A stretch of 38,759 nt of DNA. Origin: an uncultured Loktanella sp. GTDB taxonomy: Bacteria; Pseudomonadota; Alphaproteobacteria; Rhodobacterales; Rhodobacteraceae. The notes under the pieces were generated by a model that was not told where the DNA came from, searched no databases, and saw only the letters and a list, made by a program, of their open reading frames with translations. The number at the start of each line of letters is the position of its first letter. Positions within the stretch are counted from its first letter, which is position 1. This document shows positions 1-22,300 of the stretch, in pieces. Location: NCBI GenBank assembly GCA_964581065.1, contig CAZOMZ010000001.1, forward strand, positions 1 to 38,759, written 5' to 3'. The position numbers and the translations under genes were made by a program.

Positions 1-13
1 GACGGTCAAGGCG

Positions 14-2146: not shown

Positions 2147-2166
2147 GGCACAAAACGGAGACATCC

Positions 2167-3063: not shown

Positions 3064-3092
3064 CCCGGCTTGCCGCTGAACGGAGAAAACAA

Positions 3093-3665: not shown

Positions 3666-4702
3666 AGATTCTTGTCACAGGTGGTGCGGGCTTTATCGGA
3701 TCAGCAGTCGTTCGGGCAGCCGTCGCACGCGGCCATCAGGTTGTGAATGTCGATGCGCTGACATATGCCGCCTGTCTTGAAAATGTGGCTTCGGTCGCGG
3801 ACACGGCCGGATATGCCTTTGTCCATGCTGATATCTGCGACAGCGCGGCAATGGCCAAAGTCTTTGCCACCCATACCCCCGACGCCGTGATGCATCTTGC
3901 GGCCGAAAGCCATGTGGACCGGTCCATTGACGGTCCGGGGGCCTTTATCCGGACCAATGTCACCGGCACCTATACCCTGCTCGAAGCCGCGCGGGACTAC
4001 TGGCAGACAATCGGGCGACCTGACACATTCCGGTTTCATCATGTATCTACGGATGAGGTCTATGGCACTCTGGGAGCCGAGGGAAAGTTCACCGAAGACA
4101 CCCCCTATGCCCCCAACAGCCCCTATTCGGCCTCCAAGGCCGCGTCCGACCACCTTGTCCGCGCATGGGGAGAAACCTACGGGCTGCCGGTCGTGATCAC
4201 CAACTGTTCGAATAACTATGGCCCGTTCCATTTTCCCGAAAAGCTGATCCCTGTGGTCATCCTCAACGCACTTTCCGGTGCGCCGATCCCCGTCTATGGC
4301 CGTGGCGAAAACGTGCGCGACTGGCTTTATGTCGAGGATCACGCCGATGCCTTGCTGAAGGTTCTGTCAGAGGGCGCAACAGGCCGGACCTACAACATCG
4401 GCGGTGAGAACGAGGCGCGCAACATCGACATCGTTCGCACGATATGCGCGATCCTTGATCGTCTCAGACCCGCCAAGACACCCTATGCAGAACAGATCAC
4501 CTTTGTCTCCGACCGGCCCGGCCACGACCTGCGCTATGCGATTGATCCGTCGCGGATGCGCGACGAACTGGGCTGGCGGCCTTCGGTCAGTCTGGAACAG
4601 GGGCTGGAGCTGACCGTCCGCTGGTATCTTGAGAACGAAGACTGGTGGCAGGCGCTTCTGGACCGCCAAGGCGTCGGCAAACGTCTGGGATCGGGCGCAT
4701 GA
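3662..4702 (+). CDS. rfbB: dTDP-glucose 4,6-dehydratase
   Basis: Motifs [45 protein letters not shown] and [16 protein letters not shown] overlap with rfbC. Confidence 0.98.
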
Positions 4703-5547
4703 AGGTTCTGGTCTTCGGTGCAACTGGTCAGGTCGCCATGGCGCTGCAGCAGCATGAGGGTGTTACCGCACTGGGCCGCGCTGCCGCCGATCTGACAGAC
4801 CCTGCAGCCTGCGCTGATATCATCGGGTCCTGCGATGCGGATGCGGTTATCAATGCCGCAGCCTATACGGCCGTCGATCAGGCCGAAAGCGATCAGGAGA
4901 CAGCATTTGCCGTCAATGCCGTAGCACCTGCCCGCATGGCCAAAGCGGCGGCGCAGCGCGACATACCGTTTCTGACGATCTCGACGGACTATGTTTTTGA
5001 TGGCGCTGGCACAAAGCCTCACGGGCCGGCTGACAGGATGGCGCCCCTCAACGTCTATGGCAGGTCAAAGGCCGAAGGCGAGGACGGCGTGCGCGCGGCA
5101 GGTGGACGGCATGTCGTGCTGCGGACGTCATGGGTGTTTTCCGAGCATGGGAAGAACTTCGTCAAAACCATGCTTCAGCTAGCCGCGACACGCGATCATC
5201 TGACCATCGTCGACGATCAGATCGGCGGGCCGACCGCCGCGCATGATATCGCGGACACGCTCATGCACATGGCGCGGCAGATGGTCGGTGAAAAAACGAA
5301 CGGCGGCACCTATCATCTGAGCGGCACACCCGATGCAAGCTGGGCAGACTTTGCCCGCGAGATCTTTCGGCAGGCGGGGCACGATGTGCGGGTCTCGCCG
5401 ATTGCGACGGCAGACTACCCGACACCAGCCCAGAGACCGCTTAACTCGAGGCTTGATTGTCAGTCTCTCTTTGACGACTTTGGCATTTCACAGCCCGACT
5501 GGCGGGCCAGCCTGTCACGGGTTCTGACGGCTTTGGGCAAGGGATAG
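4699..5547 (+). CDS. rfbD: dTDP-4-dehydrorhamnose reductase
   Basis: Motifs [47 protein letters not shown] and DQIGGPT. The true start is the ATG at 4699, overlapping the rfbB stop (ATGA). Confidence 0.96.
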
Positions 5548-5551
5548 CAGG

Positions 5552-6418
5552 ATGCAGCGCAAGGGGATCATCTTGGCAGGCGGGTCGGGCACGCGGCTTT
5601 ATCCGATCACGCTTGGCATCTCCAAGCAGCTACTCCCGATCTATGACAAGCCGATGATCTACTATCCGCTGTCCGTCCTGATGCTGACCGGCATTCGCGA
5701 GATTGCGATCATTACCACTCCGCAGGACCAGACCCAGTTCCAGACGCTTCTGGGCGACGGGAGCCAGTGGGGACTGGAGCTTACCTACATCGTACAATCC
5801 AGCCCCGATGGTCTGGCACAGGCCTACTTGCTGGCCGAAGCTTTTCTTGACGGGGCCCCAAGCGCAATGGTGCTGGGTGACAACATCTTTTTTGGTCACG
5901 GCCTGCCCGACGAATTGCAGACCGCAAACAAAAGGGATCAGGGCGGCACGGTCTTTGGTTACCGCGTCAGCGATCCGCATCGCTATGGCATCTTGGGCTT
6001 TGACGCCGAAGGTCGGGTGAATTCCATCGTTGAGAAGCCATCGACACCTGCGTCCCGCTTTGCGGTTACCGGCCTCTATTTCCTTGATGGCAGTGCGCCT
6101 GAACGCGCCAGACAGATCGCGCCTTCGGAACGCGGCGAGCTTGAGATCACAGCCTTGCTGGAAAGCTACCTGCATGAAGGCAATCTACATGTTCAGCAAA
6201 TGGGGCGTGGCTATGCGTGGCTGGATACCGGCACCCATGCGAGCCTGTTGGATGCCGGCAACTTTGTCCGCACGCTGACTGAACGGCAGGGGCAGCAGGT
6301 CGGCAGCCCTGACGAAATCGCCTTTGCGAACGGATGGATCAACGCCGAGCAACTGCGCGCCCGTGCCGCCCGATTTGGCAAGAGCAGCTACGGCGATTAC
6401 CTGCTGGGACTGCTCTAA
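5552..6418 (+). CDS. rfbA: Glucose-1-phosphate thymidylyltransferase
   Basis: Motifs GIILAGGSGTRLYP, SKQLLPIYDKPMIYYPL, LGDNIF, PSERGELEIT and GRGYAWLDTGT. Confidence 0.98.
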   Translation: MQRKGIILAGGSGTRLYPITLGISKQLLPIYDKPMIYYPLSVLMLTGIREIAIITTPQDQTQFQTLLGDGSQWGLELTYIVQSSPDGLAQAYLLAEAFLDGAPSAMVLGDNIFFGHGLPDELQTANKRDQGGTVFGYRVSDPHRYGILGFDAEGRVNSIVEKPSTPASRFAVTGLYFLDGSAPERARQIAPSERGELEITALLESYLHEGNLHVQQMGRGYAWLDTGTHASLLDAGNFVRTLTERQGQQVGSPDEIAFANGWINAEQLRARAARFGKSSYGDYLLGLL

Positions 6419-7431
6419 CTGCCTGCCCCGCTGATCGGTCGCAGGATATCGGCATCGTCGCCGAACTTCGCTTTGTAGGCGGTGGTGAGACCAAGGCATT
6501 CAGTCGATGCGCAATTCGCCTGATGGGGGCACTGGTAGAATCCGTTGCGATCGAATTCGGTCCAGAAGTCAGGGTCGATCACAAGCGTCGGCTGCGCATT
6601 GACAAGCGCATCACCAAGCTCGCCCAACATGCATTCAGGGAAATTCTTGACCTCGACATAGCGGCCCTGCGCGCGGCACTTCAGAATGGCTTCGCGCAGA
6701 TACGGCAGAATATCGCTATGGCGGGCGGCCAGATCTTTGGGATCGTCCTCGGCCATCGGAAAGAAGTTCCAGAACTCCATCTGCGCCAGCCGCTTGAGAT
6801 GGGATAGCGCATCCACCATGCCCGGCAAGAGCATATAGCTTTGCGTTGTAATGACGGAATTGGTGATCAGTTTGACGTGGTCGTATTGGTCCAGATGGGC
6901 CATCCCCGCCATCATCTTGTCCCACGCGCCTTCGACTTGGGTGATCCTGTCGTGGCTTTCGGCATCGCTTCCGGCAACGGAGACAAAGTATTCATCGACC
7001 CCTGCCTCGACCAGCCGGTCCGCGTAGTCCGTGCGGCCAAGATGCATGCCGTGTGTCTGAATGCGAACGTGGCTGAAGCCCGCAGATTTCGCCTTGCGCG
7101 CGATGTCCGGCAGATCACGGCGCAGCGTGATTTCAGAGCCGGTCAGAACAAGGCCCTCCCAACGACCTGTCTGCGATTGATCGCGGCAGATGTCATCAAG
7201 CGTCTTGTCCGAGGTTGGCGCAAGACGGTCCATCGTTCCTTCGATCATGCAATGCACACATTTCAGGTTGCATCTGAACTCCATCGTCAAAGAAACATAC
7301 TTTTCATGATCTCGCAGACTGAGGCCCTTCACACGCTTCAACTGCGACAGCGGCGTCGTCACGCCAACGCGCGTTCCCTCGGTCCCGACCGTTCTCGCGG
7401 GCTGTCGCGGAATGCGTCTAGAGGAGGCCAT
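6415..7431 (-). CDS. Radical SAM enzyme (about 338 aa) with a C-terminal Cys cluster; resembles peptide/protein-modifying maturases
   Basis: CxxxCxxC motif CNLKCVHC at 7249-7272, LTGSEITL (variant GGE motif), IQTHG, VSVAG...HDRIT, NFPECML and C-terminal CPHQANCASTECLG. Start moved from 7659 to the ATG at 7431, which overlaps the upstream gene's stop by 14 nt. Confidence 0.9.
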   Translation of the reverse strand: MASSRRIPRQPARTVGTEGTRVGVTTPLSQLKRVKGLSLRDHEKYVSLTMEFRCNLKCVHCMIEGTMDRLAPTSDKTLDDICRDQSQTGRWEGLVLTGSEITLRRDLPDIARKAKSAGFSHVRIQTHGMHLGRTDYADRLVEAGVDEYFVSVAGSDAESHDRITQVEGAWDKMMAGMAHLDQYDHVKLITNSVITTQSYMLLPGMVDALSHLKRLAQMEFWNFFPMAEDDPKDLAARHSDILPYLREAILKCRAQGRYVEVKNFPECMLGELGDALVNAQPTLVIDPDFWTEFDRNGFYQCPHQANCASTECLGLTTAYKAKFGDDADILRPISGAGS

Positions 7432-8299
7432 AAAAGCTGCCTTTCGTCGGGGTGATTTTGCCATCGATATCGCAATCGAAATCCCAGCCCACATCGTAGA
7501 GGTGGTGGTCAAGCGCATCCATGTTTTCCTGCAGATAATCACGAAGCGGCTCAGGAAAGGAAAGCCGTTCCAGAAAGATCGCCAGTTGCGCGGCGCGTAT
7601 CCGCGAAAAATAGATCGCATCGCGCTGCTGCTTGTTGGCGACAACGACTGTTTCGACACCCGCCATCTCGGGCCAGAGCAGATCGTCCATCCTGACCCTG
7701 TTTGCGGGCAGATAGATGGACTCGGTTAGTTTGTCGTGGATTTCTTTCGCTTCACGCTCGGCATTGAAGAAGAAGTAGAAGTTCCGCATGTGATAGCCCG
7801 CCGCAGACATACCGTAGCAAATGCCCGACGACACGGTGGAACCCGGATTGCCCATGTAGATGTCGATCTGGTCAAGCGGGGTGCCTTGGAGATGCGCCGC
7901 CGAGACCTCGACCGAAAACATGAAGTAGGGCTTTTCGTCATCCGGCGTGAGGTCGCACCGCAGCAATCCCTTTGTGGCATCCAGAAAGTCAGCTACGCCC
8001 AACCTGCGGGCTTCGCGCGCATAGTCGTAAAAGTAGAACTCCCAGCTTGGTCCTGCGTCAGACCACTTCATCCCCCAGACTGTCGCGAACCTGCCCCACC
8101 GATTGCGCAGCGTATCGGTCAGCGCAAGCATCTCTGCGCCCACACCGGCAGCCTCAAAACTCTTGTAAAGCAGGGCAACGCTGCGCAAAGCGTCGTCCGT
8201 GGCGACGCGTGGCGGCGTGTAGGGCCAGATGCAGAAATCCTGCGCGATATCACCGGGGCGGCTGAACTGCGCCGCCGCCTTGGCACCCCAGTCAATCAT
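7418..8299 (-). CDS. Hypothetical protein (293 aa), aromatic-rich, possible ABBA/PT-barrel fold
   Basis: Typical codon usage and ATGA coupling to the upstream gene (8296-8299). Helices alternate with five aromatic beta-hairpins. The ORF is well supported; the fold is inference. Confidence 0.8.
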   Translation of the reverse strand: MIDWGAKAAAQFSRPGDIAQDFCIWPYTPPRVATDDALRSVALLYKSFEAAGVGAEMLALTDTLRNRWGRFATVWGMKWSDAGPSWEFYFYDYAREARRLGVADFLDATKGLLRCDLTPDDEKPYFMFSVEVSAAHLQGTPLDQIDIYMGNPGSTVSSGICYGMSAAGYHMRNFYFFFNAEREAKEIHDKLTESIYLPANRVRMDDLLWPEMAGVETVVVANKQQRDAIYFSRIRAAQLAIFLERLSFPEPLRDYLQENMDALDHHLYDVGWDFDCDIDGKITPTKGSFYGLL

Positions 8300-9027
8300 A
8301 TCGCACGCGCCCCGTAGTAGATCGTCACGAACGTTGCCCCGTCACTGGCTTGGCCAGCGGCAATATGGCCAAAGCGCGCGTTGGCTTGTTCGTCAAGGAA
8401 TGGGCGCAGATCGCAGCCGTGGAACGCCTTAAGCGGCAGAAGAATTTCGGTTGCGTCCCGCAAACTGGCTTTTGCATCGGCAACCGAGATATCGACCGAT
8501 GCGCGGGCAGATCCGTCTTCGGTCACATGAAGAACGACAGCCTGCCCGTCGGGATCGCCGTCACGGGCAAGATCGAGGCTTCGCTGCATGACGTCCGCCA
8601 CCACCGGATCAGGCACAAGCCTCCGCACCAAAGCTGCTTTGTCGGCATGCGGTCGCGCAGACACGGCGACATAGCGGTTCAGTCGCTGCGCATCTCCGCG
8701 CCATTTCAAAGCGAGAAAAACAAGGTCCGGCTCGGGCGCATCTTGGGGCGCGAACTCAAGATAGCATTTACCGATATCACCATCGGCACCAAAGTGGACA
8801 GCACAGGCCTGCGACAAGAACGGTTCGAGTGGCATGGGGTCCGGGCAACCAAGAGCGGCGCAAACATCGCGTAGCGTCGATTTTGGACCGGGATAGAGCG
8901 CGCGCTTGTCCATACTGACCAGACCCCTCTCGGTCGAGATGCGACCACGGGACAGCTTTGCGGATCGCTCGAAGATACGGGGCGCTTCCAGTGTCTCTGT
9001 GGCAGACAAAAGACGCGCAACGCTCAT
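8296..9027 (-). CDS. Hypothetical protein (243 aa), possible ABBA/PT-barrel fold
   Basis: The ATG at 9027 has GGAAGG upstream and lies 1 nt after the MFP stop (9029-9031), so the ORF-track extension to 9207 is rejected. Five-hairpin pattern including HFGADGDIGKCYLEF. Confidence 0.78.
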   Translation of the reverse strand: MSVARLLSATETLEAPRIFERSAKLSRGRISTERGLVSMDKRALYPGPKSTLRDVCAALGCPDPMPLEPFLSQACAVHFGADGDIGKCYLEFAPQDAPEPDLVFLALKWRGDAQRLNRYVAVSARPHADKAALVRRLVPDPVVADVMQRSLDLARDGDPDGQAVVLHVTEDGSARASVDISVADAKASLRDATEILLPLKAFHGCDLRPFLDEQANARFGHIAAGQASDGATFVTIYYGARAI

Positions 9028-9028
9028 G

Positions 9029-9850
9029 TCAGCCTTCCGCTGGAAAGGACAGGATGCAGCGGTGACCCGCGGGCAATGCCCCATCAGGGTTTGGCAGTTC
9101 GAGCTCAACGCCAAACGTGCCGGACGCGGCATCGAAGACCTGATCGAAGGCAATGACGCGTGCTTCGAATGTCTCGGTAATCGGGGCGGCAGGCGCAATT
9201 GTTGCACGCATGCCGTTGATGATTTCGGGGTAAAGCTCGACCGGCAGGAAGGCTTCGATCAACAACGGATCCAGTTTCACGATCGTCACGATGGATCCGT
9301 TTGACGCGACAAACTCGCCGCCGGATAGATTGCGGGTAAGGATGACGCCGTCGATGGGGCTTTTGATGGTACGCTGGGCAAGTTGCTGCCGCGCGCGCGC
9401 CAGTTCCTGCTGGGCGATATCGCGATCAAGGTTGGCCTGGGCCAGCAATGCCTCTGCCGCAACCAATTCCGCCTCGGCTTCCTGTAGCTGCTCGGCCGAG
9501 GCCACGTTGCGATCGACCAGAGTTTTGATCCGCTCGCGCTGAAGCTGGATCAACTCCAGTCGCGCGGTCTGAGCTTCAATGGCCACCGTGTTGTTTGCGC
9601 GCGTCTCAAGCAAGCCAATCGTGGCCATTTCGACGCTGCTTTCCAGTTCGGCAATGACTTGCCCGCGCGAGACAGCCTCGCCCCGCCGGACCTTTACCTC
9701 GGCCAGAATTCCGGCGACCGGAGCGCCAACGTCAATCACGCTGGCGGGATCCATGACGCAGTCAAACGTCTCTCCGCCCAGCCCTTCGGCTATTGCAGGG
9801 ACGGCCGACAGCCCCAGCAGCGACGAGATCACGAGAAAGGCAAAACGCAT
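9029..9850 (-). CDS. Efflux RND/HlyD-family periplasmic adaptor (MFP) with signal peptide
   Basis: Signal peptide MRFAFLVISSLLGLSAVPAIA. Lipoyl half-motifs GAPVAGILAEVKVRRGEAVSRGQVIAEL and IKSPIDGVI flank a coiled coil. The beta-barrel ends with ELPNPDGALPAG. Confidence 0.9.
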   Translation of the reverse strand: MRFAFLVISSLLGLSAVPAIAEGLGGETFDCVMDPASVIDVGAPVAGILAEVKVRRGEAVSRGQVIAELESSVEMATIGLLETRANNTVAIEAQTARLELIQLQRERIKTLVDRNVASAEQLQEAEAELVAAEALLAQANLDRDIAQQELARARQQLAQRTIKSPIDGVILTRNLSGGEFVASNGSIVTIVKLDPLLIEAFLPVELYPEIINGMRATIAPAAPITETFEARVIAFDQVFDAASGTFGVELELPNPDGALPAGHRCILSFPAEG

Positions 9851-9885: not shown

Positions 9886-11907
9886 CTATTCAAGCTGGCC
9901 TGAAAACGCCATCAAATCACCCAGTTCGCGGTCTTGTTTCATCAGATCGCGGCGGGCCTGCGCATGCGTCGCCTCGGTAACACGCTGGCGGTTGCGGATG
10001 ACGCTGCCGATTGCCCGGGTGCCGAGAAATAGCGAGAGCACATAAGCAAGCCGTCTCGCCCCTGCAGCATCAGGTCCTTGCATCAGATCATCCTCAAGAC
10101 TGAGGTAGGCTTCGTTCCAGCCTGGCTCGCCCTGTCGGCCGCAACGCCCCTCCAGCTGCCGGTCGACACGGCGACTGTCATGGCGTTCGGTCAGGATAAC
10201 GGTCAGACCGCCCAACGCAGCGACACCTTCACCCAGTTTGATGTCAGTGCCCCGACCGGCCATGTTCGTCGCCACAGTGATCGCGCCACGCTGTCCGGCC
10301 AATGACACAATCGCTGCTTCATCCGCGTCCTGATCCGCCGACAGGGTCTGATGTGGCAGACCCGCCTCGGTCAGGCGCTTGCTGGCTTCCTGAGACGCAA
10401 GGATCGAGCGTGTGCCGATCAGCACAGGCTGCCCCTTTGCGTGAAGCTGTGCAACACGCTTGGCAATCGCACGCCATTTGGCATCTGCAGTCCGGAAGAC
10501 ACGGTCACGTTTGCTGCGCCGGATGTCGCGCTTGTTTGTCGGGATCTTGGCCACGGCGAGCTTGTAGACAGTCCACAACTCCCATGCGGCATCCTGCGCT
10601 GTGCCGGTCATTCCGCCAATGCGCGCATAACGCCGGAAAAAGCGTTGGTATGTCATCCGCGAGAGTGTTTCGTTCGTCGGCGAAATCTCGAGACCTTCCT
10701 TCAGTTCGACCATTTGGTGCAAACCGTCCGACCATGTGCGGTCGGGCATGGTGCGCCCTGTGTTTTCATCGACGATCTGCACCTTGTCATCCTTGACGAT
10801 ATAATGGTCGCCCAAATGAAACAGATAGAGCGCATTCAGCGCCTGCTGCACAGTGTGATCGCGGATCACTGGGATCGAGAATGTATCGGTCCGGCCCTCG
10901 GTGAGTTCTTCGAGATAGTCATATCCCGCCTCGAGTATCTCGACCCGTTTGATCCCGCGCGGCAGTTTGAAGTGCAGGTTTTCGACCAGTCTTTTGGCGA
11001 CTTCCATCCCGCTTTCAAACACCTCGTTGGGCATTCCGCCTTCCAATGCCGCCGCGCCCGAGATGATCAGTGGCGTCCGCGCCTCGTCGATCAGGACGCT
11101 GTCGGCCTCATCAATGATCGCGAAGGGCAGCCCCTGCATCCGCAAGGGTTCGGTCGGGCCACCATCGGGGATCAGCCGGTCGACCTTGCGGCGCAGATTG
11201 CCCGGCGCACGACGTAGAATCGCACGGTCCCGCAGATAGTCAAAGGCCAGTTCCTTGTTTGTGCCGTAGACGATTTCTTGCAGATAGGCCAACTGGCGGG
11301 TCGGCCCGTCCTGCCCTTCAAGAACAGTCGCCCGTGTCAGACCCAGAAAATCATAGAGCGGGCCGGTTTCCTCGGCGTCGCGCTCGGCTAGATAGTCGTT
11401 AACGGTCATCACATGGACCTGACGGCCTGACAAGGCGACAGTCGCAACAGCAAGTGTTGCGCAAAGTGTCTTGCCCTCGCCGGTCCGCATCTCGGCAATC
11501 TGGCCCTTGAGCATCGACCATGCCCCGAGGATCTGGACGTCGTAGTGACGCTTGCCAAGCACCCGCGTTGCGACTTCGCGGATCAGGGCAAAGGATTCCC
11601 CTGCCGCAGCGGTCGGCAACTTCTGGCCGCGCAGGCTTTGGCGAAGATTAACGCGGACCCCGCGGACACAGGCCTTGAGTTCGGCGTCGCTCATCGCGGC
11701 AAAGCGTTTCTCGTGGCGGCGGACGGCCCAGAGGATTGGCCGCAGCATCAGCGCCCTGCCACGCGCCCCCTGCGCGATATAGGCACCCTGCAACCACGCC
11801 CAAGCGCGATCCAGCTCTGTCTCGTCCCGATCCGCCGCTTCGGCGTAATCGACGATGCGCGGTAGCCTCAGGCGACGGGCCGGTTTGCTGACCCAAAGAT
11901 CAGACAC
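9886..11907 (-). CDS. Secondary SecA-like DEAD ATPase (673 aa, C-terminally truncated paralog)
   Basis: Motifs MRTGEGKT, TVNDYLAERD, GTNKELAFDYLRD, IIDEADSVLIDEARTPLIISG, GMTGTA, ATNMAGRGTDI and RRVDRQLEGRCGRQGEPG. The GTG start overlaps the upstream stop by 8 nt. Confidence 0.92.
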   Translation of the reverse strand: MSDLWVSKPARRLRLPRIVDYAEAADRDETELDRAWAWLQGAYIAQGARGRALMLRPILWAVRRHEKRFAAMSDAELKACVRGVRVNLRQSLRGQKLPTAAAGESFALIREVATRVLGKRHYDVQILGAWSMLKGQIAEMRTGEGKTLCATLAVATVALSGRQVHVMTVNDYLAERDAEETGPLYDFLGLTRATVLEGQDGPTRQLAYLQEIVYGTNKELAFDYLRDRAILRRAPGNLRRKVDRLIPDGGPTEPLRMQGLPFAIIDEADSVLIDEARTPLIISGAAALEGGMPNEVFESGMEVAKRLVENLHFKLPRGIKRVEILEAGYDYLEELTEGRTDTFSIPVIRDHTVQQALNALYLFHLGDHYIVKDDKVQIVDENTGRTMPDRTWSDGLHQMVELKEGLEISPTNETLSRMTYQRFFRRYARIGGMTGTAQDAAWELWTVYKLAVAKIPTNKRDIRRSKRDRVFRTADAKWRAIAKRVAQLHAKGQPVLIGTRSILASQEASKRLTEAGLPHQTLSADQDADEAAIVSLAGQRGAITVATNMAGRGTDIKLGEGVAALGGLTVILTERHDSRRVDRQLEGRCGRQGEPGWNEAYLSLEDDLMQGPDAAGARRLAYVLSLFLGTRAIGSVIRNRQRVTEATHAQARRDLMKQDRELGDLMAFSGQLE

Positions 11908-14047
11908 GGAACTGCCTCAGGAAAAGCTGTCGGAGACCACGATAGAGCCTGTACCCGATTGGTTCGAAGCCGTGATCGAATTTCACAAGCGCACGTGCTC
12001 CGACGCGGGTGACAGGCATGGGATCAATCGTTGCAATCTCGAACTGGAAGACGCTCTGAAGCGTTGAAAGCTCGCTGCGGCCGGTCGGGTCAAGAACGAT
12101 ATCGCCACCGGCTTGCGTTGACAGTGCCAGCGACGGAACCGTGTCCTGCGATTGCGGCACTTCGACGACCAGCCGCCCCGGCACTTCGGTGCCGATGGCA
12201 TCCTGAAACATGATCTGCACATTCTCGGTCCGGTTGCGCACAATCTCGGCCTGCCCTTGCGGAATGGCCACGCGCAGGCGCATGTCGTCATCACCGATCA
12301 GATAGCCCAGCACCTCGCCCTGCCGCACAAGACGGCCCGCCATGCTTTCGGCGTCAGGCACAACGACGAGACCCTCGGCCTTTGCCTGCACAACAAGGTC
12401 CTGCTGTCGCTGGCGCAGACTGGCAAGCTGGTCTTCGATCAGTCCAACGCGATCGCGGAGCAACTGCGCCTGCACCTGATCAACAAGCAGGATCGCTCGA
12501 AGGCGCAGCTGGGCTTCGCGCAACTGGCTTTCGAGAATGGTAATCCTGTTTTCAAGTACCGGATCCTGCATCGTCACGACGGGTGTTCCGGGCTGCGCCG
12601 GAGCTCCTGTCGGCAGGTTGACCTCCGATACAAAACCCTCAGTGCCCGCCCGGACGATGGCGTTCTGATCCAGCCAAACCACACCATGCGCAACTGTTGC
12701 ATAGGGCGCGGGCAAACTGAAAAGCAAAGCCGCCACACCCGAGAATGCGGCAAAGACAGCAGCCATTGCACGCCCGCGTTTCAGCCGCAGCTCGGGGCTG
12801 GTCACCATATACTTGATGCCCTTGAAAAGCGGCTGCACAAAGGTGTTGAACAGTGCCCAGAGCGCCAGAATAACGCCGATGAAAAAGAACTTTGACGCCA
12901 CAAAAAGCGCAATCGCGAAGCTGATGAACATCCGGTAGATGAATGCGGCGATTGCATAGGTGAAAAGCCACTTGCGTTCACCCTTTGCGGTCACCCCGTC
13001 AGGCACGTCCTTGACCCGAAAGACGTAGGTGCGGATCAGATAGAAGATATAGGCATTCGACCGCTGCCCCAGATTGGGGATTTCGATCAGATCGGAAAAG
13101 ACAAAGTAGCCGTCAAAGCGCAACAGCGGGTTGCCGTTGAACAAGAGCGTCGAGATCCCCCCGATCAGCATGACGTTGAAGGCAAAGGCGCGGACCAGCC
13201 CCGGTTCGACGTTGAGCCAGACAATCAGGGCAAGTGCAGCAAGCGCCGTTTCGACCATGATGCCCGCACCACCAACAACGGCGCGCCGCCATTTGCTGTC
13301 AAACGCGGCCGATGACGACGCATCCACATAAGGCACCGGAATGAAAACAAGGAACATGACCCCGATTTCATGGACTTCGCCGCCCCAGACCTTTGCCGCA
13401 TATCCGTGGCCAAGTTCATGGAGTGCTTTCACAAAGGGATAAGCGAGCGCGATCAGAAGCAGGTTCTCTGCGGCCAGCACCTGATCCACAAACCCTTCTG
13501 TCAGAACGTTCCAGTTCAATGCGGCCAGACCGATGCCTGACAGGACGAGTGTCAGCCATGCGACAAAGCCCGCGGGCGTGAAGAGAAACCTGACGAGATG
13601 GACGGTCGCACCCAGAAACGGGTCGGGATCAAAAAGCGGCAGGCGCAGGGCCATCGGGTTCTTGATCCGTGCGATCATCGTCTGCCGTTCTTGCTTGGCA
13701 TGACGGCGACCGATTTCCTCCATGTCGGGGGGCAGGTCACTGGCGATCAGGTCTGACCGGTGCAGCTGGCTCATCAACCGGATGGTTTCCGACTGCGTCG
13801 GCGGATCGTCCTCGAAGCGACGGCAAGCGGCTTCCCATATCTGGTGCATCGTCCGCTGGCCGTTCATCAGCGCGATGATGTAATTCGCCGCAGGCGTAAT
13901 CCGGTGATACTTGCCACTATGCTGGTCTTGCAGCACGAACCACGTGTCGCCCCGATACCGCTGCCGGTGCACTTCCACATGTCCGCGCAGCCGCGGCTTA
14001 AGAGGGGCAACGCGGTACCAGTCAGATGAGAGCAGCGCGCGGTTCAT
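11900..14047 (-). CDS. Fusion protein: PqqD/RRE-like N-terminal domain + M50 (site-2) zinc metallopeptidase + HlyD-like MFP domain
   Basis: HELGH at 13406-13420 and NGNPLLRFDG at about 13109-13138, both within multiple hydrophobic TM segments. The N-terminus has a three-strand/three-helix pattern and the C-terminus a lipoyl/coiled-coil MFP. The ATG at 14047 has a GAGGTG RBS. Confidence 0.85.
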   Translation of the reverse strand: MNRALLSSDWYRVAPLKPRLRGHVEVHRQRYRGDTWFVLQDQHSGKYHRITPAANYIIALMNGQRTMHQIWEAACRRFEDDPPTQSETIRLMSQLHRSDLIASDLPPDMEEIGRRHAKQERQTMIARIKNPMALRLPLFDPDPFLGATVHLVRFLFTPAGFVAWLTLVLSGIGLAALNWNVLTEGFVDQVLAAENLLLIALAYPFVKALHELGHGYAAKVWGGEVHEIGVMFLVFIPVPYVDASSSAAFDSKWRRAVVGGAGIMVETALAALALIVWLNVEPGLVRAFAFNVMLIGGISTLLFNGNPLLRFDGYFVFSDLIEIPNLGQRSNAYIFYLIRTYVFRVKDVPDGVTAKGERKWLFTYAIAAFIYRMFISFAIALFVASKFFFIGVILALWALFNTFVQPLFKGIKYMVTSPELRLKRGRAMAAVFAAFSGVAALLFSLPAPYATVAHGVVWLDQNAIVRAGTEGFVSEVNLPTGAPAQPGTPVVTMQDPVLENRITILESQLREAQLRLRAILLVDQVQAQLLRDRVGLIEDQLASLRQRQQDLVVQAKAEGLVVVPDAESMAGRLVRQGEVLGYLIGDDDMRLRVAIPQGQAEIVRNRTENVQIMFQDAIGTEVPGRLVVEVPQSQDTVPSLALSTQAGGDIVLDPTGRSELSTLQSVFQFEIATIDPMPVTRVGARALVKFDHGFEPIGYRLYRGLRQLFLRQFRV

Positions 14048-14057
14048 TGCGTCACCT

Positions 14058-15974
14058 CTAGCTCGGGATCCAGCGCCAAAGCGCGATCCGCGCCCAGTCG
14101 ACAAGAGGCTTGGTCCAGATCGCAATCAATCGGCGTTCCTCGACCTCGATCCGCGCCGCGCCCTGCATCCCCGGCCGCAAGGCCACAACATCACCCTGAA
14201 AGCGCGCCTCGACCTCAAAGGTTGTGGCACCCTCGGCATAGGTTGCAACGGGGGTGATCTTTTCTATGGCGACAGTGAAGGTCTGGTCAGGCAGCGCGGT
14301 CACCCGCAAGGCACCAGTCTGCCCGGGTTTCAGATCCGCGATCTGTCGTTCGTCAACCTGCAGGATCACACGGTAGGCGTCCGCCGGTGCAATCGTCAGC
14401 AGCGCCTCACCGCGCGAGACGGCCGATCCAATGGATTGACTGAGATCGCCCGACACCACGAGACCGTCAAAAGGTGCAACCAGTCGGGTGCGGCTTAGCT
14501 GTTCATCGAGCAACCCGATCTCGGCATCTGCCTGATCGATGAGCGTCTGGCGGATGTTCATCTCGGCCCTGTCGCGGGCCGCAACCGCACGATCGAATTC
14601 GATCTGCTGGCGCTGGCGCTGGTTGACCAGACGCAGCCTTTCAAGGCTGAGGTCACGGTCGTCGAGTTGCACCAGAAGATCGCCTTCGGCGACAAGATCG
14701 CCTGCACGCACAGGTGCGGCCGCGATAAACGCATCAAAGCCCGGTACGATTGCGCGCTCGACCGTCCCGACAACACGCGCCTCGGCGCCGACCTCATATG
14801 TGCTGCGCGCAAACCAGAAAAAGACGGTGGCGGCAATGAGGGTCGCCATGATCAGCTTGCGCACCAGATGTGACGGCCCGAGAAGCCGTTTGATCTGCCC
14901 CAGCAGGCTGTCACCCATCTTGGTGATCAGCCAGCGATCATTGCGGCGTTTTTCGTCAAGGATTGGCGCAAGGACCGTCGTAACGGCCTCAAGCACGTCC
15001 AACTGGCGTTCGTCGAAAGGAAGTTCCTTTGGCCTTTCAAACGTCAGCGCACCGATAAACGCGCCGTTCGAATAAAGCGGGACAGTATAGACATGCCCTG
15101 CACCATGATCGCGGGCGAGGGCTGCGGCGGCATGGGTCGCAAAGACCACCTCTGCATCATCGTCCGGCCAGAGCACCGCAGCACGCTGGTCAATCGCCTC
15201 ATCCATCGCGGCATTCAGTCGCCCGACAAGTTCCATCCGCTTGGAGAACTGCGCCTGATGCGAGATAGCGCGGACACGGCTGCGCCTGAAACGCCGCATA
15301 CCGAGCGATACGCGATCACATTCAAAGCGGGTGGCGAGGTCCGTGACAGCAGCGCTGGCGGCCGCCATGAATTCCTCGCGTTCCGCCACCACGATGATCG
15401 TATTCAATGCCTCGACAGCGGCCGAGTAGCGGATTTCCTCTTTCTGGTGCTCTTCTTCGCGCAGCACGTCGCGCAGCCATGCCGCACCCCATTGCAGGCG
15501 GCGCATGGCCCAACGCATGTCGGTCTGTTTGACGGGGCGCATCTCGATGACGACAACGCCCACCGGCACATCCCGCACGATCAATGGGGCCGCAGCGGCC
15601 ATCGGGCTATTTGCAGCAGGGCCATCGGGTCCCGGCATCTCGCCTTTTGCGACCGGGCGCCCGTTTTCGACGGCTGCTTGCGCGGCTTCGACCGTCAGCG
15701 CCGACCCTACGCGGTTGCGTGGGCTGCTGCCGATCGGTGTCAGTTGACGCGATGGCTGGTCATAGCGAAATGCAAAAAGTGCGAGCGGCTGGACGCCGGC
15801 ATGTTCGTCCATCTGGGCATGCATCAGCTCGACCCAGCTTTGCCCCTGTTTTCGGATGTCGCCCTGCTCTGCAAGGGCGCGCCAGAGTGCCGCCTGTCCG
15901 GTCGGCACAGAGGCAAGTTTTTCGGCATCGGTTGTCTGCGTCTGAATCAGGGGGTCCTGATTTTCAGCTGTCAT
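14058..15974 (-). CDS. HlyD-family membrane fusion protein with N-terminal GAF-like domain(s)
   Basis: GAF-like segments (AAAPLIVRDVPVGVVVIE; YTVPLYSNGAFIGALTFER), one TM (LIMATLIAATVFFWFA), then the MFP motifs VRAGDLVAEGDLLVQLDDRDL, coiled coil, LVAPFDGLVVSGDL and LRPGMQG. Confidence 0.85.
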   Translation of the reverse strand: MTAENQDPLIQTQTTDAEKLASVPTGQAALWRALAEQGDIRKQGQSWVELMHAQMDEHAGVQPLALFAFRYDQPSRQLTPIGSSPRNRVGSALTVEAAQAAVENGRPVAKGEMPGPDGPAANSPMAAAAPLIVRDVPVGVVVIEMRPVKQTDMRWAMRRLQWGAAWLRDVLREEEHQKEEIRYSAAVEALNTIIVVAEREEFMAAASAAVTDLATRFECDRVSLGMRRFRRSRVRAISHQAQFSKRMELVGRLNAAMDEAIDQRAAVLWPDDDAEVVFATHAAAALARDHGAGHVYTVPLYSNGAFIGALTFERPKELPFDERQLDVLEAVTTVLAPILDEKRRNDRWLITKMGDSLLGQIKRLLGPSHLVRKLIMATLIAATVFFWFARSTYEVGAEARVVGTVERAIVPGFDAFIAAAPVRAGDLVAEGDLLVQLDDRDLSLERLRLVNQRQRQQIEFDRAVAARDRAEMNIRQTLIDQADAEIGLLDEQLSRTRLVAPFDGLVVSGDLSQSIGSAVSRGEALLTIAPADAYRVILQVDERQIADLKPGQTGALRVTALPDQTFTVAIEKITPVATYAEGATTFEVEARFQGDVVALRPGMQGAARIEVEERRLIAIWTKPLVDWARIALWRWIPS

Positions 15975-16297
15975 TTGCCTTCGTCCGTCTTCAGAACGCC
16001 GTGCCGCGCTTCGTATTCGGCAAGGACTTTTGTCAGGATCGTGTTCAGCCGCTTGGCCGCATAAGGTGTCAGGATCATCCGGTTGGTGAGGTCAACCTTC
16101 ACTTCGCTGTCACTGGCAAGGTTCCACGACCGGTGGGTGCCAAAGAACAGTTCGACCTGTTCGCGCGTCCCCTGAATATTGACCACATTGGCAAAGCCTG
16201 TGGTCATATTGCTGTCATTCCATTGGATACCGGCCCGGTGCTGCCCCGGTTCGAGGGCGGGATTCATCCCGCCCTGTTTGCTTGCGTCATCGGCCAT
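15971..16297 (-). CDS. DUF3467-like small protein
   Basis: 108 aa with the pattern FANVVNIQGTREQVELFFG...RMILTPYAAKRL...Y E.RHG, recalled as typical of DUF3467. ATGA overlap with the downstream MFP gene. Confidence 0.75.
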   Translation of the reverse strand: MADDASKQGGMNPALEPGQHRAGIQWNDSNMTTGFANVVNIQGTREQVELFFGTHRSWNLASDSEVKVDLTNRMILTPYAAKRLNTILTKVLAEYEARHGVLKTDEGK

Positions 16298-16311: not shown

Positions 16312-19300
16312 TTACTGGTTTTCATCCCGCGTTGAACGGAATGGCATCGCGACAGCCGCAACCCCGTTCGAGGCAACTGTTGCTTCTAGCAACCAATCAT
16401 CCTCGATTTCATCTGCCTCTTCAACCGGATCGGTGACACGATCGCTTTGGCCGTTGGGGTTGTCCTCGATGTCGTCAATGATCCAGACGCCACCGAATTC
16501 ATCGACATAGGCAAAAAGCTCGCCGTCGCTGTCGAAGAGTTGCAGCACAGTCTTGGCCGTTCCGGTATCTTGCGGTGTTGGCGCATTGACCTGCGAGAAC
16601 TCACCCGTGTCATCGTCGTAGACATAGGTCAGTGCCGGACCGTTCAGTGTCATACCATTGATTTCGGCAAAGCCGTTCTGGCCGACCGTAATCCCGACCG
16701 TGTCGGTCGGGAAGCTGCTGATGATGTCCTTGGTCGGACGGTCAGCACCGGTATCGGCGGTGATGGGCACGTTGATCGTTGTCTCGTCACCTGCATAGAG
16801 ACCTGTCACACCAGCAAGCGTCGGCACATAGCCGTAGTCATCAAGCGGGCTGTTTGCCAGACGGTCCCCGACAGGGATCGGATCAGGCGACAGGATCACG
16901 CCGTCATCGACCGTGCCGCGTCCGCTCAGGATGCCAGGTCCGGCCTGCTTGCGGAACTCGTCAAGGTTGACCGGGTTGTTGATGTCATTGTTGACAAGAC
17001 CCAGCTCACCATAGGGTTCACCAGCGACCGACACCGGAATGCCGTTCAGGACAAGCACCGGATCCACATCCGCGGCCCGTGTGCGGTCGACACCATCGGC
17101 TGCAGCAACCCGCAGGATGAAAGTCTCGAGCGTCAGAGCGTAGGTATCGATAACGGTTGGCGCACCCGCGTTACGGTAAGGCACGAAGTACTCGTTGAAG
17201 TCACCGTTCCAGTCGACCAGGCGGTCGCCCGAGGTGTTGGCGATCATGAAGTCACGGCCAGCGCCACCAAAGATGAAGTCTTCATAGCTGATGTCTTCAT
17301 CCGGCACGTTGTTCAGACCAGCGATCAGTGACTCGTCCACATCCAGCGTGGCAGGGTCATCAATGCCAACCGATGTCAGGTCGTCATCGCCGTTGATCAG
17401 GTCGTTACCGTAACCACCGTAGATCGAGTCGCGGCCTGTACCACCAAACAGGATGTCGTTGCCGATCGAACCGAAGATCCGGTCATCACCATCCGACACA
17501 TATCCGTTCTCGGAGCGCGCATCCAACTGACCCTCGGTATGGTCGAAGTTGAGGAAGAACGGATTGTTGCCCTCCTCGAATGTGACCTCGTTGGCCGCGT
17601 TGAAGGTGATCGCACCGCGCGGCAGGCTTTGATCCAGCAGCGGCAGGAAGACCAGATGCACAGCGGGCGATTCAACGCCGGCAAACTCTGTCTCGTTGAC
17701 CGCGGCAGTGGTGCCCGGGTTGAACGGGGTGTCAAAGCTGATGATATTGCCCAGATGGTCTTGCGGGTTTGCCTCAAGCGGCAGCGCTTCCGCACCCGAG
17801 ATCGCATCCGAACCGACGCCGCCATGCAGGAAGTCAGACCCCCAGCCGCCGAAGATGATGTCGGAGGCATCGGTCGCATTCCAGTACTGGTCGTTGGGAT
17901 TGTCCGGGTTGGTCGAGAACGGAGTCAGGTTCACCGACTTCACCAGCAAGCCGTCACGGTCGACGATCGTCCGCAATGCGTCTTGGTCGTCAGCAATGAG
18001 CAGGACATCCACCGCGTCAAGGGCATCGATACCGAAGAGGGACTCGCCGAATTCGGTCGAATTGCGGCTGGTCATGATCCGGCCATCGTCACCGATGACA
18101 CCATCGACACCCGTACCACCGGAGATCCAGTCGTTACCGGTACCGCCGATGATATCGTCGCTTTGCGCGTCGCCGAACAGTACGTCATCGCCCAACTGGC
18201 CGTAGATCGTGTCGTCGCCGCCTTCACCGTGGACTTCGTCGGCTGCGCCCTGATCGGTTGCCGCAGCAACCGGATCGATATCGACCCCGCCTTCGGTATA
18301 GTCGAGCAGATCGACACCGCGTGGGACAATCTTGACGTCCCCGTAGATGTCATAGGCGAACTGCAGATATGCACCCGAAGACACGCCGTTGATCCCCACC
18401 AAACGGTAGATGTTGGCGTTATCGCCGGCGATCACATCGTTGTCGCGACCGTAGGCTTCGGCACTGTCGTCGCCCAGCTCGTTCCGGCTGACATCGGTAC
18501 CTGCGCCGCCGAACAGCATATCCTTGCCGTCAAAGCGCATCTCGCGGGTTGTCAGACCGTAATGCTCGGAAGAACCACCGATGATGTCGTCACGGCCAAG
18601 GTTGCCGAAGACGGTATCGGCACCGCCGTTACCTTCAATGTAGTCGTCGCCGTCACGGCCGACGCCATTGTAGTCTTCCATCGAGGCATTGATGACCAAG
18701 AGGCCCTCAGCATCGCGATAGGCACCGACTGCAGCACCCTGGAAGGCATCCGCGATTCCATCCTGGTTAAAGTCGATCGTGCCATCACCCTGAATAACGT
18801 CGTCACCCAGTTGACCGAAGATCATGTCGTCTTCGGAACCACCGGCGATGTGGTCATCGCCATAGATGCTGGCCGATGCGCCGACCTCGTGGTCGAACAG
18901 CGTGATCGCACGTTGTGTTGTGCCATCGACGTTGATCTGCGCCTGATCAGTGACCAACAACTGGCCGTCGTTCACGTCACCCTGATCGGCATGGACGTTC
19001 GTGCCGTAGATCTGCGTACCCGACAGGACGCGCATCCGCGTGTCGATCAGGTTATGCGTCCGCAGGATCGCGCCGTTGTCGCCGAGGACTACATCGTCGC
19101 CCGCGCCACCGTCGAGGGCATCGCCCGCGTCGGCACCGCCTGCCACGTTGTGACCACCGATGATGTCATCATCGCCTGCGCCACCAAAGATCGTATCGGC
19201 ACCTTGCTGACCCATGATGAAGTCATCACCGGCACCGCCGAAGATCGTGTCGTCTCCACCGGCATCCGCACCGGTGATCCCGATCGAAGTCGCTGTGATC

Positions 19301-22300
19301 GCCTCATCGGTCAGGTTGTCCAGTGGCAATGTGCTCAGATCGATTGTGCCTGTGACCTCCAGATGGTCACCTGCAATCACGTCCTGTCCGCCCAGTGCAT
19401 AGATCAGATCACCGGCTGTGCCGCCGATAATCAGATCGTTGCCTGCGCCGGACTGGATGGTGTCGCTGCCGCCTTCAAGCAGATCAATCGAGCGGACCAG
19501 CGACGGGAAGTTCGTGCCGCTGACAGGGTTGTGGAACTGCATCTCGCCGTGATCACCGAGCAGGATGTTCGACTTGTCAAAGACCGCCGGACCATCGCCC
19601 GCGTTGGCTTTGATATCGTCGCCACCGGCACCGCCGAGGATGATATCCGCGCCCAGACCGGTGTTGATGATATCCGCGTCACCGATCGCAGCATCGATTG
19701 TTGCAAGCGACGCAAGGCTGATCGGCAGACCGTTGTCGGCCAGCGCCTCGTCCGACGTACCGATCAGGCGGCCATTGTCACCAAAGACGATGTTGTCGCC
19801 GTTGCCGCCGGTCAGCGTATCGCTGCCGAAGCCACCGATGACGATATCCGCGCCATTGCCCGACGTGATTGTATCTGCACCACCGATGCCGGTGTCTGTG
19901 CTTTCGATCCGCAAGGCAATCGGCTGTGGGGTCGTCTCGACCGGGCGGTCGAAGGTTGCACGACCGTGATCCCCGAAGAGGATATCCGCCGCATCAAGAC
20001 CGCCGCCGACTGTGGTGTTGATCTCGTCGTCGCCTGCGCCGCCCAGAATGATGGCTGCGCCGGTTCCGATATTGATCTCGTCCCTCGTACCGATGGTGGC
20101 TGCCATCGACTGCACCAGCGCGAGGCTGATCAGCGCCGAACCGACAGGTGCGTCGGCAAAGCCGGAGAGATAACCATTGTCACCGAAGATAATGTCGTTT
20201 CCGCCGGTACCGCTGATTGTGTCGCTGCCGTCGCCGCCAACAACGATGTCACCCGCGCTGCCGGTCGTGATCACGTCATCACCACCGAAAGAGGTGAACA
20301 GCGAACGCGCGGCCAGAACGACCGGCACGACATCACCGTCAACCGCGACACGGAAGGCGATCTGCGCGTGATCGCCAAAGATCACGTCAGGTCCCGTGCT
20401 GCCATTTACTGCAGCGATGGTATCTCCGCCAACACCACCGACGATGTAGTCGGTGTCGGTACCGGCTGTGATATCATCAGCGTCACCGAGCGATGCATCG
20501 GTGCTGACAATTGTTTTCAGCGTGAGCTCAAGATCACCCATGCCTGCACCCGAGCCATAGCCGGTGATCAGACCGTGGTCACCGATGATGACGTTTGTGC
20601 CGTCGCCAAGATTGATTGTGTCGACCCCGGCGCCGCCAAGCGCCACATCATTGCCGTCTTGGGCGTAGATCTCGTCACCGCTACCGATGCTTGGTGCGAG
20701 GGTCCGGATCAGATCAATCGAGCTGTTGTCGCGGTCGGACATTGTCCAATCAACCAGACCGTTGTCGCCGATCCCGATGTTATCGCCGCTGCCAAGGTTG
20801 ATGTAGTCTGCGCCAGCACCACCGATCACGATATCGCTGCCACCGTTGCCAAAGATGCGGTCCGCATCGCCGGCACCAAAATCGGTGCTTTCCACGCGGG
20901 CATAGTCGCCGGTCGAGGTGATCCGCAGCGTGCCGGGCACCTGCCAGACAAGACCGTGGTCGCCCAGAATGATATCGCGTCCGGCACCGCCGGTGATTTC
21001 ATCGCGCCCACCTGCACGGGTATCCGCGCTGAGATACTGCGGCATGTCGTTGACAAAGCTGACCTCGACGAGACCACGGGTCACCAGATCGATGCTGAAG
21101 CCGTTGTCGCCGTAGATGATGTCATCGCCACCCAATGCGTCGATGGTGTCATCTCCGCCACCGCCTGCGATGTGATCGCGCCCGCCGGAACCGGTGATGT
21201 TGTCGTTGCCGATACCGCCGTAGATCACGACACCCAGATCGTCGGCCCCAAGGCCCGCACCGGATGCGTCGATGGTATCGCCGTGATCCTCGGGTGCGCC
21301 AACCGCATTGAAGTTGAACGCGTTGCCGTTCGATGCGCCGCCTTCGTAGTTGTAGCGGCGGCCATCGGCATCCGTGTCACCGTAAAGTGCAAGGATGGTC
21401 CGTTCGCCGTTCTGACCGATGCTCAACTCATTGACAGTGATCGTATCAGCACCGCCGCCACCGTGGATCAGTGTGATCGGCAGGTTTACGACACCGTCAG
21501 CCGGGTTGTTGTAATCCGAGCTGATGTTGGTGCCGTCGATGGTGAATGTATCGTCTTCGCGGCCCAGCATCACTTCGATGATTTCAACCGTCGAGATCGA
21601 GATGCCCTTGTTGAACTCAAGATCAGGCAAGCCATCACCCTGCGGGATGGTCACGATACCGGTGCCCATACCCAGACCATCAATCTGCGTGCGGCCATCG
21701 GCGGTGTTATACATCCGGCCACTGTCAGCGATCTTCGAGTCATCGTTGAAGATGTTCACGCGGTCGTTCTGAACCAGTTCGTCGGTCGCAACCGTGACTT
21801 CGAACGGTCCGGGATCGCTTTCTGTGGCCAGCATGATAGCTGCCTGCAGTTCGCGGCCGGTTGTCGGACCACCGTCGATGATCAGCGGACCGCGGATCTC
21901 GCCCGTGCGATGTGCACCGTTATCGAAGGTTTTGGTGACGCGGTCGAGCGCGGTCGGCGTAAAGGCCTGATCGGCTTCGAGCGTGACAGTCACTTCTTCG
22001 AACCAGTTGGTTTCGTCGAAGGTGACCTGTGCCACGATGACCGAGATTGTCGCATTCACGTTCTCTTCGGCAACAACAGGCTGACCAGCCGAGAGCGTGA
22101 TGGTCGAACCATCCTCTGAAATCTCGCCAATCGCGTAAGGTGCGTTGTTGTTGGCCGTGCCGGTGATGTCCATCACGGTGCCCGAAATGAAGCCCTGATC
22201 GCGGAAGCTGAGGCCATCGGTACGGACGATTGTGTCCGGACCATCGGGGTTGCTGATGAAGGTCAGCGGGATAGCCACAGCGTTGATCAGAACAACCTCT

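What the first reader, a model, noticed from the sequence alone, without database searches (positions are those of the whole stretch)
6415..9027. Three-gene tailoring cassette (two barrel-like unknowns + radical SAM) translationally coupled to the secretion operon
Seen in sequence: the MFP stop is followed after 1 nt by ORF 9027, then an ATGA overlap with ORF 8299, then a 14-nt overlap with the radical SAM gene. None of the three has an evident signal peptide. Enzymes of this kind are not part of any secretion system I know. With an RRE-like domain and a peptidase in the same operon, the set resembles RiPP biosynthetic logic. No short precursor ORF fits in the window, so the substrate may be the giant protein (its leader), the DUF3467 protein, or a small molecule or lipid.
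Basis: partly seen in the sequence, partly recalled or inferred. Interest (0 to 1): 0.8.

Follow-up and report, generated by a model that had tools for sequence, protein, structure and literature searches.

The report
Prenylation kit for giant bacterial protein
Two genes predicted to fold like prenyl-transferring enzymes and a radical SAM enzyme gene occur, in several bacterial phyla, together with one particular subtype of a giant (about 11,000-residue), likely secreted protein, which they likely decorate with isoprene groups before export.

Summary
The three genes and their overlaps are as described. Both unknowns have confident models matching only ABBA/PT-barrel prenyltransferases (Z 12.9 and 14.5, 7-16% identity, no Pfam family). 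The third gene is an HxsC-like radical SAM enzyme. The trio is the core of a larger kit: O-methyltransferase, kinase, optional halogenase, oxygenases, B12 radical SAMs, and in 2 of 80 loci a fused DMAPP-forming isomerase. The kit follows the cargo more closely than the export genes. Only 6 of 34 M50-bearing genomes of the family have gene B, and two cyanobacteria keep the kit without M50. A 2,300-residue module of the giant protein is in 12 of 12 kit-linked giants and 0 of 17 kit-less ones. It was also found in 4 of 4 readable genomes where kit genes lie away from the export locus. No conserved precursor peptide was found. Best reading (45%): the enzymes prenylate and rework the giant's module before export. 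Main rival (35%): a prenylated small molecule made for that module. Kit-linked M50s may be one lineage, so the co-occurrence is not many independent events. No paper found.

The parts
8296..9027 (-). Gene A: ABBA/PT-barrel protein, 243 aa, with a prenyltransferase-like set of invariant residues (E20, S22, R34, K87, Y89, E91, K108, Y119, R175, S177, D179, Y237); fused to DUF3467 or to B in some genomes
   Evidence: model pLDDT 94.8; Z 14.5 to PatF, top 19 rows all ABBA enzymes; invariants in 36 sequences; fusions
7418..8299 (-). Gene B: divergent ABBA/PT-barrel protein, 293 aa (conserved K78, E87, Y89, Y91, S129, Y148, N173, Y175, K223, Y230, D269, D273, K286); nearly always beside C, sometimes fused to it
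   Evidence: model pLDDT 96.8; Z 12.9 to CdpNPT, top 19 rows all ABBA enzymes; conservation in 108 sequences; fusions
6415..7431 (-). Gene C: radical SAM enzyme, 338 aa, HxsC-like, with C-terminal cysteines predicted to hold a second Fe-S cluster
   Evidence: PF04055; best NCBIfam HxsC4 76.7 bits against cut-off 500; CxxxCxxC in 36 of 36, C-terminal Cys pattern in 34 of 36
9029..9850 (-). Membrane fusion (periplasmic adaptor) protein of the export locus
   Evidence: TIGR01730 above cut-off
9886..11907 (-). Secondary SecA_DEAD ATPase
   Evidence: PMC4452313 section 17
11900..14047 (-). PqqD/RRE + M50 peptidase + HlyD fusion
   Evidence: HExxH in 15 of 15 seed sequences
14058..15974 (-). GAF + HlyD fusion
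15971..16297 (-). DUF3467 protein: a general part of these export loci, fused to A in 6 of 80 loci
16312..38424 (-). 3' 7,370 codons of the giant protein (about 11,300 aa on the contig, with N gaps; LEPR-XLL-like leader outside the window)
25525..32427 (-). Kit-linked module of the giant protein (residues about 2000-4300 of the window ORF), no Pfam match, with conserved W2307, W3019, W3089, W3401, W3446, W3614 and several Tyr; candidate substrate or partner

Best explanation
Genes A and B encode predicted prenyltransferase-fold proteins that, with radical SAM enzyme C, likely modify a specific 2,300-residue module of the giant protein in the cytoplasm, likely by adding dimethylallyl groups to conserved Trp or Tyr residues, before the protein would leave through the SecA-M50-MFP machinery. 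Shown: gene anatomy, the predicted folds, the conserved barrel residues, the fusions, an isomerase gene for the DMAPP donor in 2 loci, and the co-occurrence of kit and module. Inferred: A is a conventional DMAPP-dependent transferase, delivered to the cargo or export machine through DUF3467. B and C act as an obligate pair, B holding or transferring and C doing radical chemistry (cross-link, cyclisation or rearrangement) on the prenylated residue. The optional methyltransferases, halogenase, hydroxylases and kinase vary the decoration. The result would give a filamentous surface protein hydrophobic, chemically varied tips, in the way HlyC acylation equips RTX proteins (HlyC analogy recalled).
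For: Fold: top 19 VIA rows are all ABBA enzymes for each model, with a drop to Z 6.2 (B) and 9.0 (A) for the next fold; Foldseek agrees (28, 29). Donor: an isopentenyl-diphosphate isomerase above its NCBIfam cut-off is fused to the kit's O-methyltransferase in 2 of 80 loci. Link to cargo: module in 12 of 12 kit-linked giants (11 with B-C, 1 with A only) and 0 of 17 kit-less giants, 13 of them homologous in flanking domains. Predicted then found: 5 of 5 genomes of other groups and 4 of 4 readable genomes with detached kit genes. Of 13 plasmids with the M50 gene, the one with B and C is the one with the module. Cyanobacteria keep kit, SapC and module-bearing giant without M50. DUF3467-A fusions in 6 of 80 loci. 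No short ORF shared beyond one clade, and no NRPS, PKS or other scaffold synthase among the gene families recurring in the 80 loci. The nearest named family of C, HxsC, helps mature an exported protein (PMC13128918, passages).
Against: No biochemical or expression data. Class II O-methyltransferases, WelO5-like oxygenases and uridine-kinase-like proteins mostly act on small molecules (recalled). Kit-linked M50s form one side of a branch (support 81, quick tree), so kit and module may share a single origin and the counts are not independent. G174 has the module and a degenerate A but no B found. The module query found nothing in three fragmented genomes, two of them B-positive (0 of 3), nor on the fetched G028 contig. 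Kit-linked giants are not richer in Trp or Tyr. B appears to lack the usual diphosphate-binding basic residues at the canonical strands (pattern recalled, not checked on coordinates). 16 of 80 loci hold no export or giant marker, several with long flanks.
Confidence: 0.45

Rival explanations
1. The kit makes a prenylated, methylated, optionally halogenated small aromatic (most likely Trp- or indole-derived) from a primary metabolite; the giant's module binds, carries or displays it, or it signals through the GAF domain.
For: Companion families are typical of indole-alkaloid tailoring: Trp halogenase 24 of 80, O-methyltransferase 51 of 80, WelO5-like 7 of 80, B12 radical SAM 5 of 80. Top structural matches for B are small-molecule DMATS enzymes. 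The richest kits (L036, L071, L076) stand apart from export genes. A small-molecule role was proposed for SapC-halogenase neighbourhoods (PMC2938197, passages).
Against: No scaffold synthase and no dedicated small-molecule exporter recurs in the loci. DUF3467-A fusions tie A to the export locus. A stays at the export locus when B-C move or vanish (G003, G174). Even detached kits sit in genomes with a module-bearing giant (4 of 4 readable).
Confidence: 0.35
2. Kit and module are co-inherited passengers of one ancestral island and do not act on each other.
For: One origin of kit-linked M50s is not ruled out. G174 keeps the module without B. The kit is rare and patchy: 1 of 150 cyanobacteria, 0 of 200, 0 of 150 and 0 of 140 sampled genomes in three other phyla.
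Against: The pairing survives gene-order shuffling (A-B-C, C-A-B, A-C-B), physical separation, loss of M50 in cyanobacteria and divergence to 31-38% identity in the module.
Confidence: 0.1
3. RiPP-type pathway: the LEPR-XLL leader (or DUF3467) is the precursor, bound by the RRE and cut by the M50 peptidase after prenylation and cross-linking.
For: PqqD and M50 domains in the operon; best NCBIfam match of that protein is a daptide peptidase, below cut-off; A's top structural match is the cyanobactin enzyme PatF.
Against: RRE-M50 and LEPR leaders occur without the kit in most cases (28 of 34 genomes). Cyanobacterial kits lack both. Leaders share only E, R and L. No conserved short ORF.
Confidence: 0.07

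Closest known systems
ABBA/PT-barrel prenyltransferases: cyanobactin F family (PatF, PagF, DciF), DMATS family (FgaPT2, CdpNPT, CymD), NphB/CloQ family
   Same: Ten-stranded barrel over the whole length; conserved inward Glu, Lys, Arg and Tyr residues.
   Different: 7-16% identity; no Pfam or NCBIfam match above cut-off for the window's A and B and no ABBA family at E<=1 for 36 A sequences; no PDB sequence match; A and B are not alignable to each other; paired with a radical SAM enzyme and a giant protein instead of a short precursor or scaffold synthase.
Secondary SecA_DEAD / M50 / HlyD / GAF locus (Kamneva et al. 2015, PMC4452313)
   Same: Same four export genes in the same operon.
   Different: The main text has no occurrence of 'radical SAM', 'prenyl' or 'DUF3467'; figures and supplements were not seen. 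The kit marks a minority subtype (6 of 34 genomes) and can persist without M50.
HXS system (HxsA-D; PMC13128918)
   Same: HxsC-type radical SAM with a second Cys cluster, acting in the cytoplasm on an exported protein.
   Different: C scores far below HxsC and HxsC4 cut-offs; no HxsB or HxsD among recurring neighbours; no HxS enrichment in the giants; partner is a PT-barrel protein.
RTX operons with an HlyC acyltransferase (recalled)
   Same: Modifier, large repeat-rich cargo and adaptor/TolC export genes in one locus.
   Different: Unrelated enzymes, predicted isoprenoid instead of acyl chemistry, SecA-M50 instead of an ABC transporter, cargo about ten times larger.

Membership tests
ABBA prenyltransferase superfamily | Ten-stranded antiparallel PT barrel wrapped in helices | tested here: met
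   models pLDDT 96.8 and 94.8; Z 12.9 (rmsd 4.4, 251 aligned) and Z 14.5 (rmsd 3.5, 212 aligned)
ABBA prenyltransferase superfamily | Diphosphate-binding Arg/Lys and tyrosine ring inside the barrel | tested here: inconclusive
   A keeps E20, R34, K87-x-Y89, Y119, R175, Y237, which fits the recalled pattern; B keeps four Tyr but has other basic residues. No superposition of coordinates was possible.
ABBA prenyltransferase superfamily | Prenyl transfer from DMAPP or GPP | not testable with these tools
   indirect only: Idi fused into the kit in 2 of 80 loci
Cyanobactin F family or DMATS family (sequence families) | Profile match above cut-off | tested here: not met
   no match for A, B or 36 A homologues; Atlas neighbours carry PF11468 or PF19156 in only 11-41% of members
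Radical SAM superfamily | CxxxCxxC and PF04055 | tested here: met
   56.2 bits against cut-off 29.5; 36 of 36
HXS system (HxsC) | HxsC equivalog score | tested here: not met
   45.5 bits against 267.9; HxsC4 76.7 against 500
HXS system (HxsC) | His-Xaa-Ser repeat substrate with HxsB and HxsD | tested here: not met
   1-8 HxS per kit-linked giant ORF, same range as kit-less ones; no such recurring neighbours
RiPP cluster | Conserved short precursor peptide | tested here: not met
   2,974 short ORFs within 6 kb of B in 80 loci; the ten largest clusters span 7-8 loci of one clade only
RiPP cluster | RRE and peptidase dedicated to the modifying enzymes | tested here: not met
   RRE-M50 without B in 28 of 34 genomes; kit without M50 in two cyanobacteria
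Secondary SecA_DEAD export locus | GAF-HlyD, M50-HlyD, SecA_DEAD and HlyD genes in one operon | tested here: met
WelO5-type halogenase (companion gene) | Loss of the acidic residue of the HxD iron motif (recalled) | tested here: not met
   consensus and own copy keep H-F-D, so hydroxylase-type

The most novel reading that the evidence does not exclude
A widespread, undescribed system in which two new PT-barrel families and a radical SAM enzyme prenylate and cross-link a 10,000-19,000-residue exported filament at a dedicated module: RiPP-grade chemistry on one of the largest bacterial proteins, with B and C forming a barrel-radical SAM pair of a new kind.
Probability: 0.4. Interest if true: 0.9.

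Novelty: new variant of a known kind. Interest (0 to 1): 0.76.

Why it matters
The function of LEPR-XLL giant proteins and of their SecA-M50 export locus is open. This finding splits them into a subtype with a diagnostic module and a dedicated enzyme kit, and names candidate residues that can be tested with fragments, without handling an 11,000-residue protein. It adds two PT-barrel families outside Pfam and a constant barrel-radical SAM pairing for which my searches found no paper. Under either main reading there is new chemistry: prenylation of a giant secreted protein, or an unknown prenylated metabolite tied to one.

Tried and rejected
(1) DUF3467 as a kit-specific gene: suggested by 8 kit-less loci lacking it, rejected when 22 of 34 M50-bearing genomes had it. 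(2) Trp, Tyr or HxS enrichment in kit-linked giants: none. (3) The C-terminal RTX-region domain as marker: present in 18 of 34 M50 genomes, with or without B. (4) Sequence bridges from A or B to solved structures or to each other: none; weak E 0.0016 between A and the N-half of the myxobacterial protein P0234. (5) Contexts of distant B relatives: the metagenome scan gave 8 loci, 2 distant and short (both with a radical SAM gene fragment next to B), 6 of the usual type (part of that output was cut); so distant clades remain unexplained. (7) Expression: no RNA holder listed. (8) Promoter and terminator scan: 0 promoter-like sites, 12 terminator-like against 9.5 by chance; GC is level across the cassette. 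(9) Literature: no paper; one irrelevant hit each for (listing only); a review on DMATS residues was not held, so the residue pattern is recalled. (10) P0168, a giant joined to the second half of B, treated as a probable assembly chimera and not used.
Full report
Observation. The three genes are at the stated places on the minus strand: A 8296-9027, B 7418-8299, C 6415-7431. The junctions are a 1-nt gap after the MFP stop, an ATGA overlap and a 14-nt overlap. Upstream lie an MFP, a secondary SecA_DEAD, a PqqD-M50-HlyD fusion, a GAF-HlyD fusion, DUF3467 and a giant ORF. Named homologues closest to B are from Yoonia, at 72-74% identity. The export genes match the locus described in PMC4452313 (section 17 read; term search of the main text; figures and supplements not seen).

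What A and B are. Neither has a family match or a PDB sequence match. AlphaFold models are confident (pLDDT 96.8 for B, 94.8 for A), each with ten main strands. In the wide structural search the top 19 rows for each are ABBA prenyltransferases: B Z 12.9 to CdpNPT, A Z 14.5 to PatF, next folds at 6.2 and 9.0. Foldseek agrees. A keeps invariant E20, R34, K87-x-Y89, K108, Y119, R175 and Y237 in 36 sequences, which fits the acceptor glutamate and diphosphate cage that I recall for DMATS enzymes. B keeps a tyrosine ring but has different basic and acidic residues, so its chemistry may differ. The A and B profiles do not align. Independent support for prenyl chemistry: in 2 of 80 loci (L024, L045) an isopentenyl-diphosphate isomerase, above its NCBIfam cut-off and E 1e-25 to the solved enzyme, is fused to the kit's O-methyltransferase.

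What C is. A radical SAM enzyme with CxxxCxxC in 36 of 36 aligned homologues and a C-terminal cysteine pattern in 34 of 36. Its best named family is HxsC4, far below cut-off. HxsB and HxsC mature an exported protein (PMC13128918, abstract and passages).

The kit. The genome scan confirmed 214 loci of B before hitting its limit and kept the best 80, from Alpha-, Beta- and Gammaproteobacteria, Desulfobacterota, cyanobacteria, Acidobacteriota, Planctomycetota and others. Within up to 10 kb of B: C 75, A 51, O-methyltransferase 51, giant 42, SapC 38, M50 27, SecA 27, DUF3467 27, Trp halogenase 24, TolC 21, P-loop kinase 18, 2OG oxygenase 16, WelO5-like 7, second methyltransferase 6, B12 radical SAM 5, each of 80 (families named). 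Many loci are cut by contig ends. Gene order varies. A is fused to DUF3467 in 6 loci and to B in 2; further A-B and C-B fusions occur among database proteins. In the window's own contig the O-methyltransferase and kinase lie upstream of the giant gene, which starts with an LEPR-XLL-like leader; a WelO5-like and methyltransferase pair lies on contig C138. The WelO5-like proteins keep HxD and so look like hydroxylases (criterion recalled). No short ORF is conserved beyond one clade.

Link to export genes. M50 was in the locus for 27 and elsewhere in the genome for 37 of 50 further genomes: 64 of 77; L007, L029 and L033 were not searched genome-wide. Of the 13 without M50, 9 have a giant gene in the locus. 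In 400 genomes of the window's family, B is in 6, all among the 34 with M50. So the kit needs this locus type, but the export machine does not need the kit. Two cyanobacteria hold SapC-OMT-C-A-B beside a giant gene with no M50 found, and the two cyanobacterial giants whose start was read begin with DUF4347, not the leader.

Link to the cargo. Comparing giants showed a stretch, residues about 2000-4300 of the window ORF, shared by the six kit-linked giants of the family and, over much of its length, by two cyanobacterial giants, and missing from eight kit-less giants. The prediction held in 5 of 5 genomes of other groups. With more loci the count is 12 of 12 against 0 of 17; 13 of the 17 are homologous in flanking domains and 4 are partial, unrelated giants. 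Profiles of six sub-regions score 85-410 bits in kit-linked giants, which were their training set, and at most 26 in the others. Four further genomes in which kit genes lie away from the export locus (G044, G003, G002, G013) all have the module; four others (G017, G083, G269, G028) gave no readable giant with it. Among 72,556 plasmids, 13 have the M50 gene and only NZ_CP049813.1 has B, C and the module. The module has no Pfam match and keeps six Trp and several Tyr in at least 12 of 13 sequences.

Against. G174 has the module and a degenerate A, with no B found in a 95% complete genome. The module query found nothing in G269, G083 and G047; G269 and G083 have over 300 contigs, and G047 is also a metagenome-assembled genome. 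In a quick tree of 45 M50 proteins the 35 kit-linked ones form one side of a branch with support 81, so kit and module may trace to one origin. What argues for function is their persistence through deep divergence, reshuffling, separation and loss of M50. No compositional bias marks kit-linked giants. There is no expression, binding or activity evidence.

Mechanism. I commit to modification of the giant's module before export (0.45): A as DMAPP-dependent transferase, B-C as a barrel-radical SAM pair reworking the product, optional enzymes varying it. A prenylated small molecule made for the module is close behind (0.35), since the companion families are typical of indole tailoring and a small-molecule role was proposed for SapC-halogenase neighbourhoods (PMC2938197, passages). 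Passive co-inheritance gets 0.10 and a leader-derived RiPP 0.07.

Novelty. Ten literature searches found the export locus and mentions of LEPRxLL giants with SapC and TolC (bioRxiv 10.64898/2026.03.19.712371, passages; bioRxiv 10.1101/2023.11.21.568195, passages, concerns other giants), but nothing on this kit or module. The library lacks most subscription papers, and supplements of these papers were not read; they could list these genes. An earlier unchecked note of this scan on another genome reached a similar reading; it is not independent evidence. Verdict: real, undescribed as far as searched, mechanism open between two testable readings; interest 0.76.

Noticed in passing
L081:12059-13569 (contig C1 about 50458-51968, outside the window): O-methyltransferase and P-loop kinase genes directly upstream of the giant gene; same arrangement in G117, G141, G109, G003, G002.
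   Followed up: yes
L082:3316-4946 (contig C138): WelO5-like oxygenase with intact HxD plus a SAM methyltransferase, detached from the main locus in this genome but adjacent to the kit in others.
   Followed up: partly
L024:10867-11460 and L045:3546-4145: Isopentenyl-diphosphate isomerase fused to the kit's O-methyltransferase in two Desulfobacteraceae loci.
   Followed up: yes
L083:2845-20572; L012; L013: B and C sit behind a 3,900-residue or longer autotransporter-like gene; in L083 and G002 a DUF3467 gene and a degenerate M50-like gene precede it, and in G003 gene A stays at the main export locus.
   Followed up: partly
L115:2129-2900 (G174): Degenerate A with changed invariant residues, followed by an unrelated repeat-protein gene where B and C would be: an apparent loss in progress.
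   Followed up: partly
P0234, P0190, P0220, P0202, P0228: Distant B relatives fused to an A-like barrel (Archangiaceae) or to HxsC-like and B12 radical SAM domains; their genomic context is unknown.
   Followed up: partly
P0168: A 3,798-aa giant joined to the second half of B; probably an assembly chimera.
   Followed up: no
window 1-6418: dTDP-rhamnose-type genes (3060-6418) and three glycosyltransferase-like or unknown ORFs on the plus strand, converging on gene C with a 4-nt overlap of the stops; names read by eye from the translations.
   Followed up: no
L089:271 onward, L091 (cyanobacteria G470, G027): A peptidyl-prolyl-isomerase-like gene (named by eye) lies between the kit and the DUF4347 giant gene.
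   Followed up: no
G014:C2, G038:C10, G012:C86, G049:C29: Module-bearing giant open frames of 14,979-19,211 codons.
   Followed up: no
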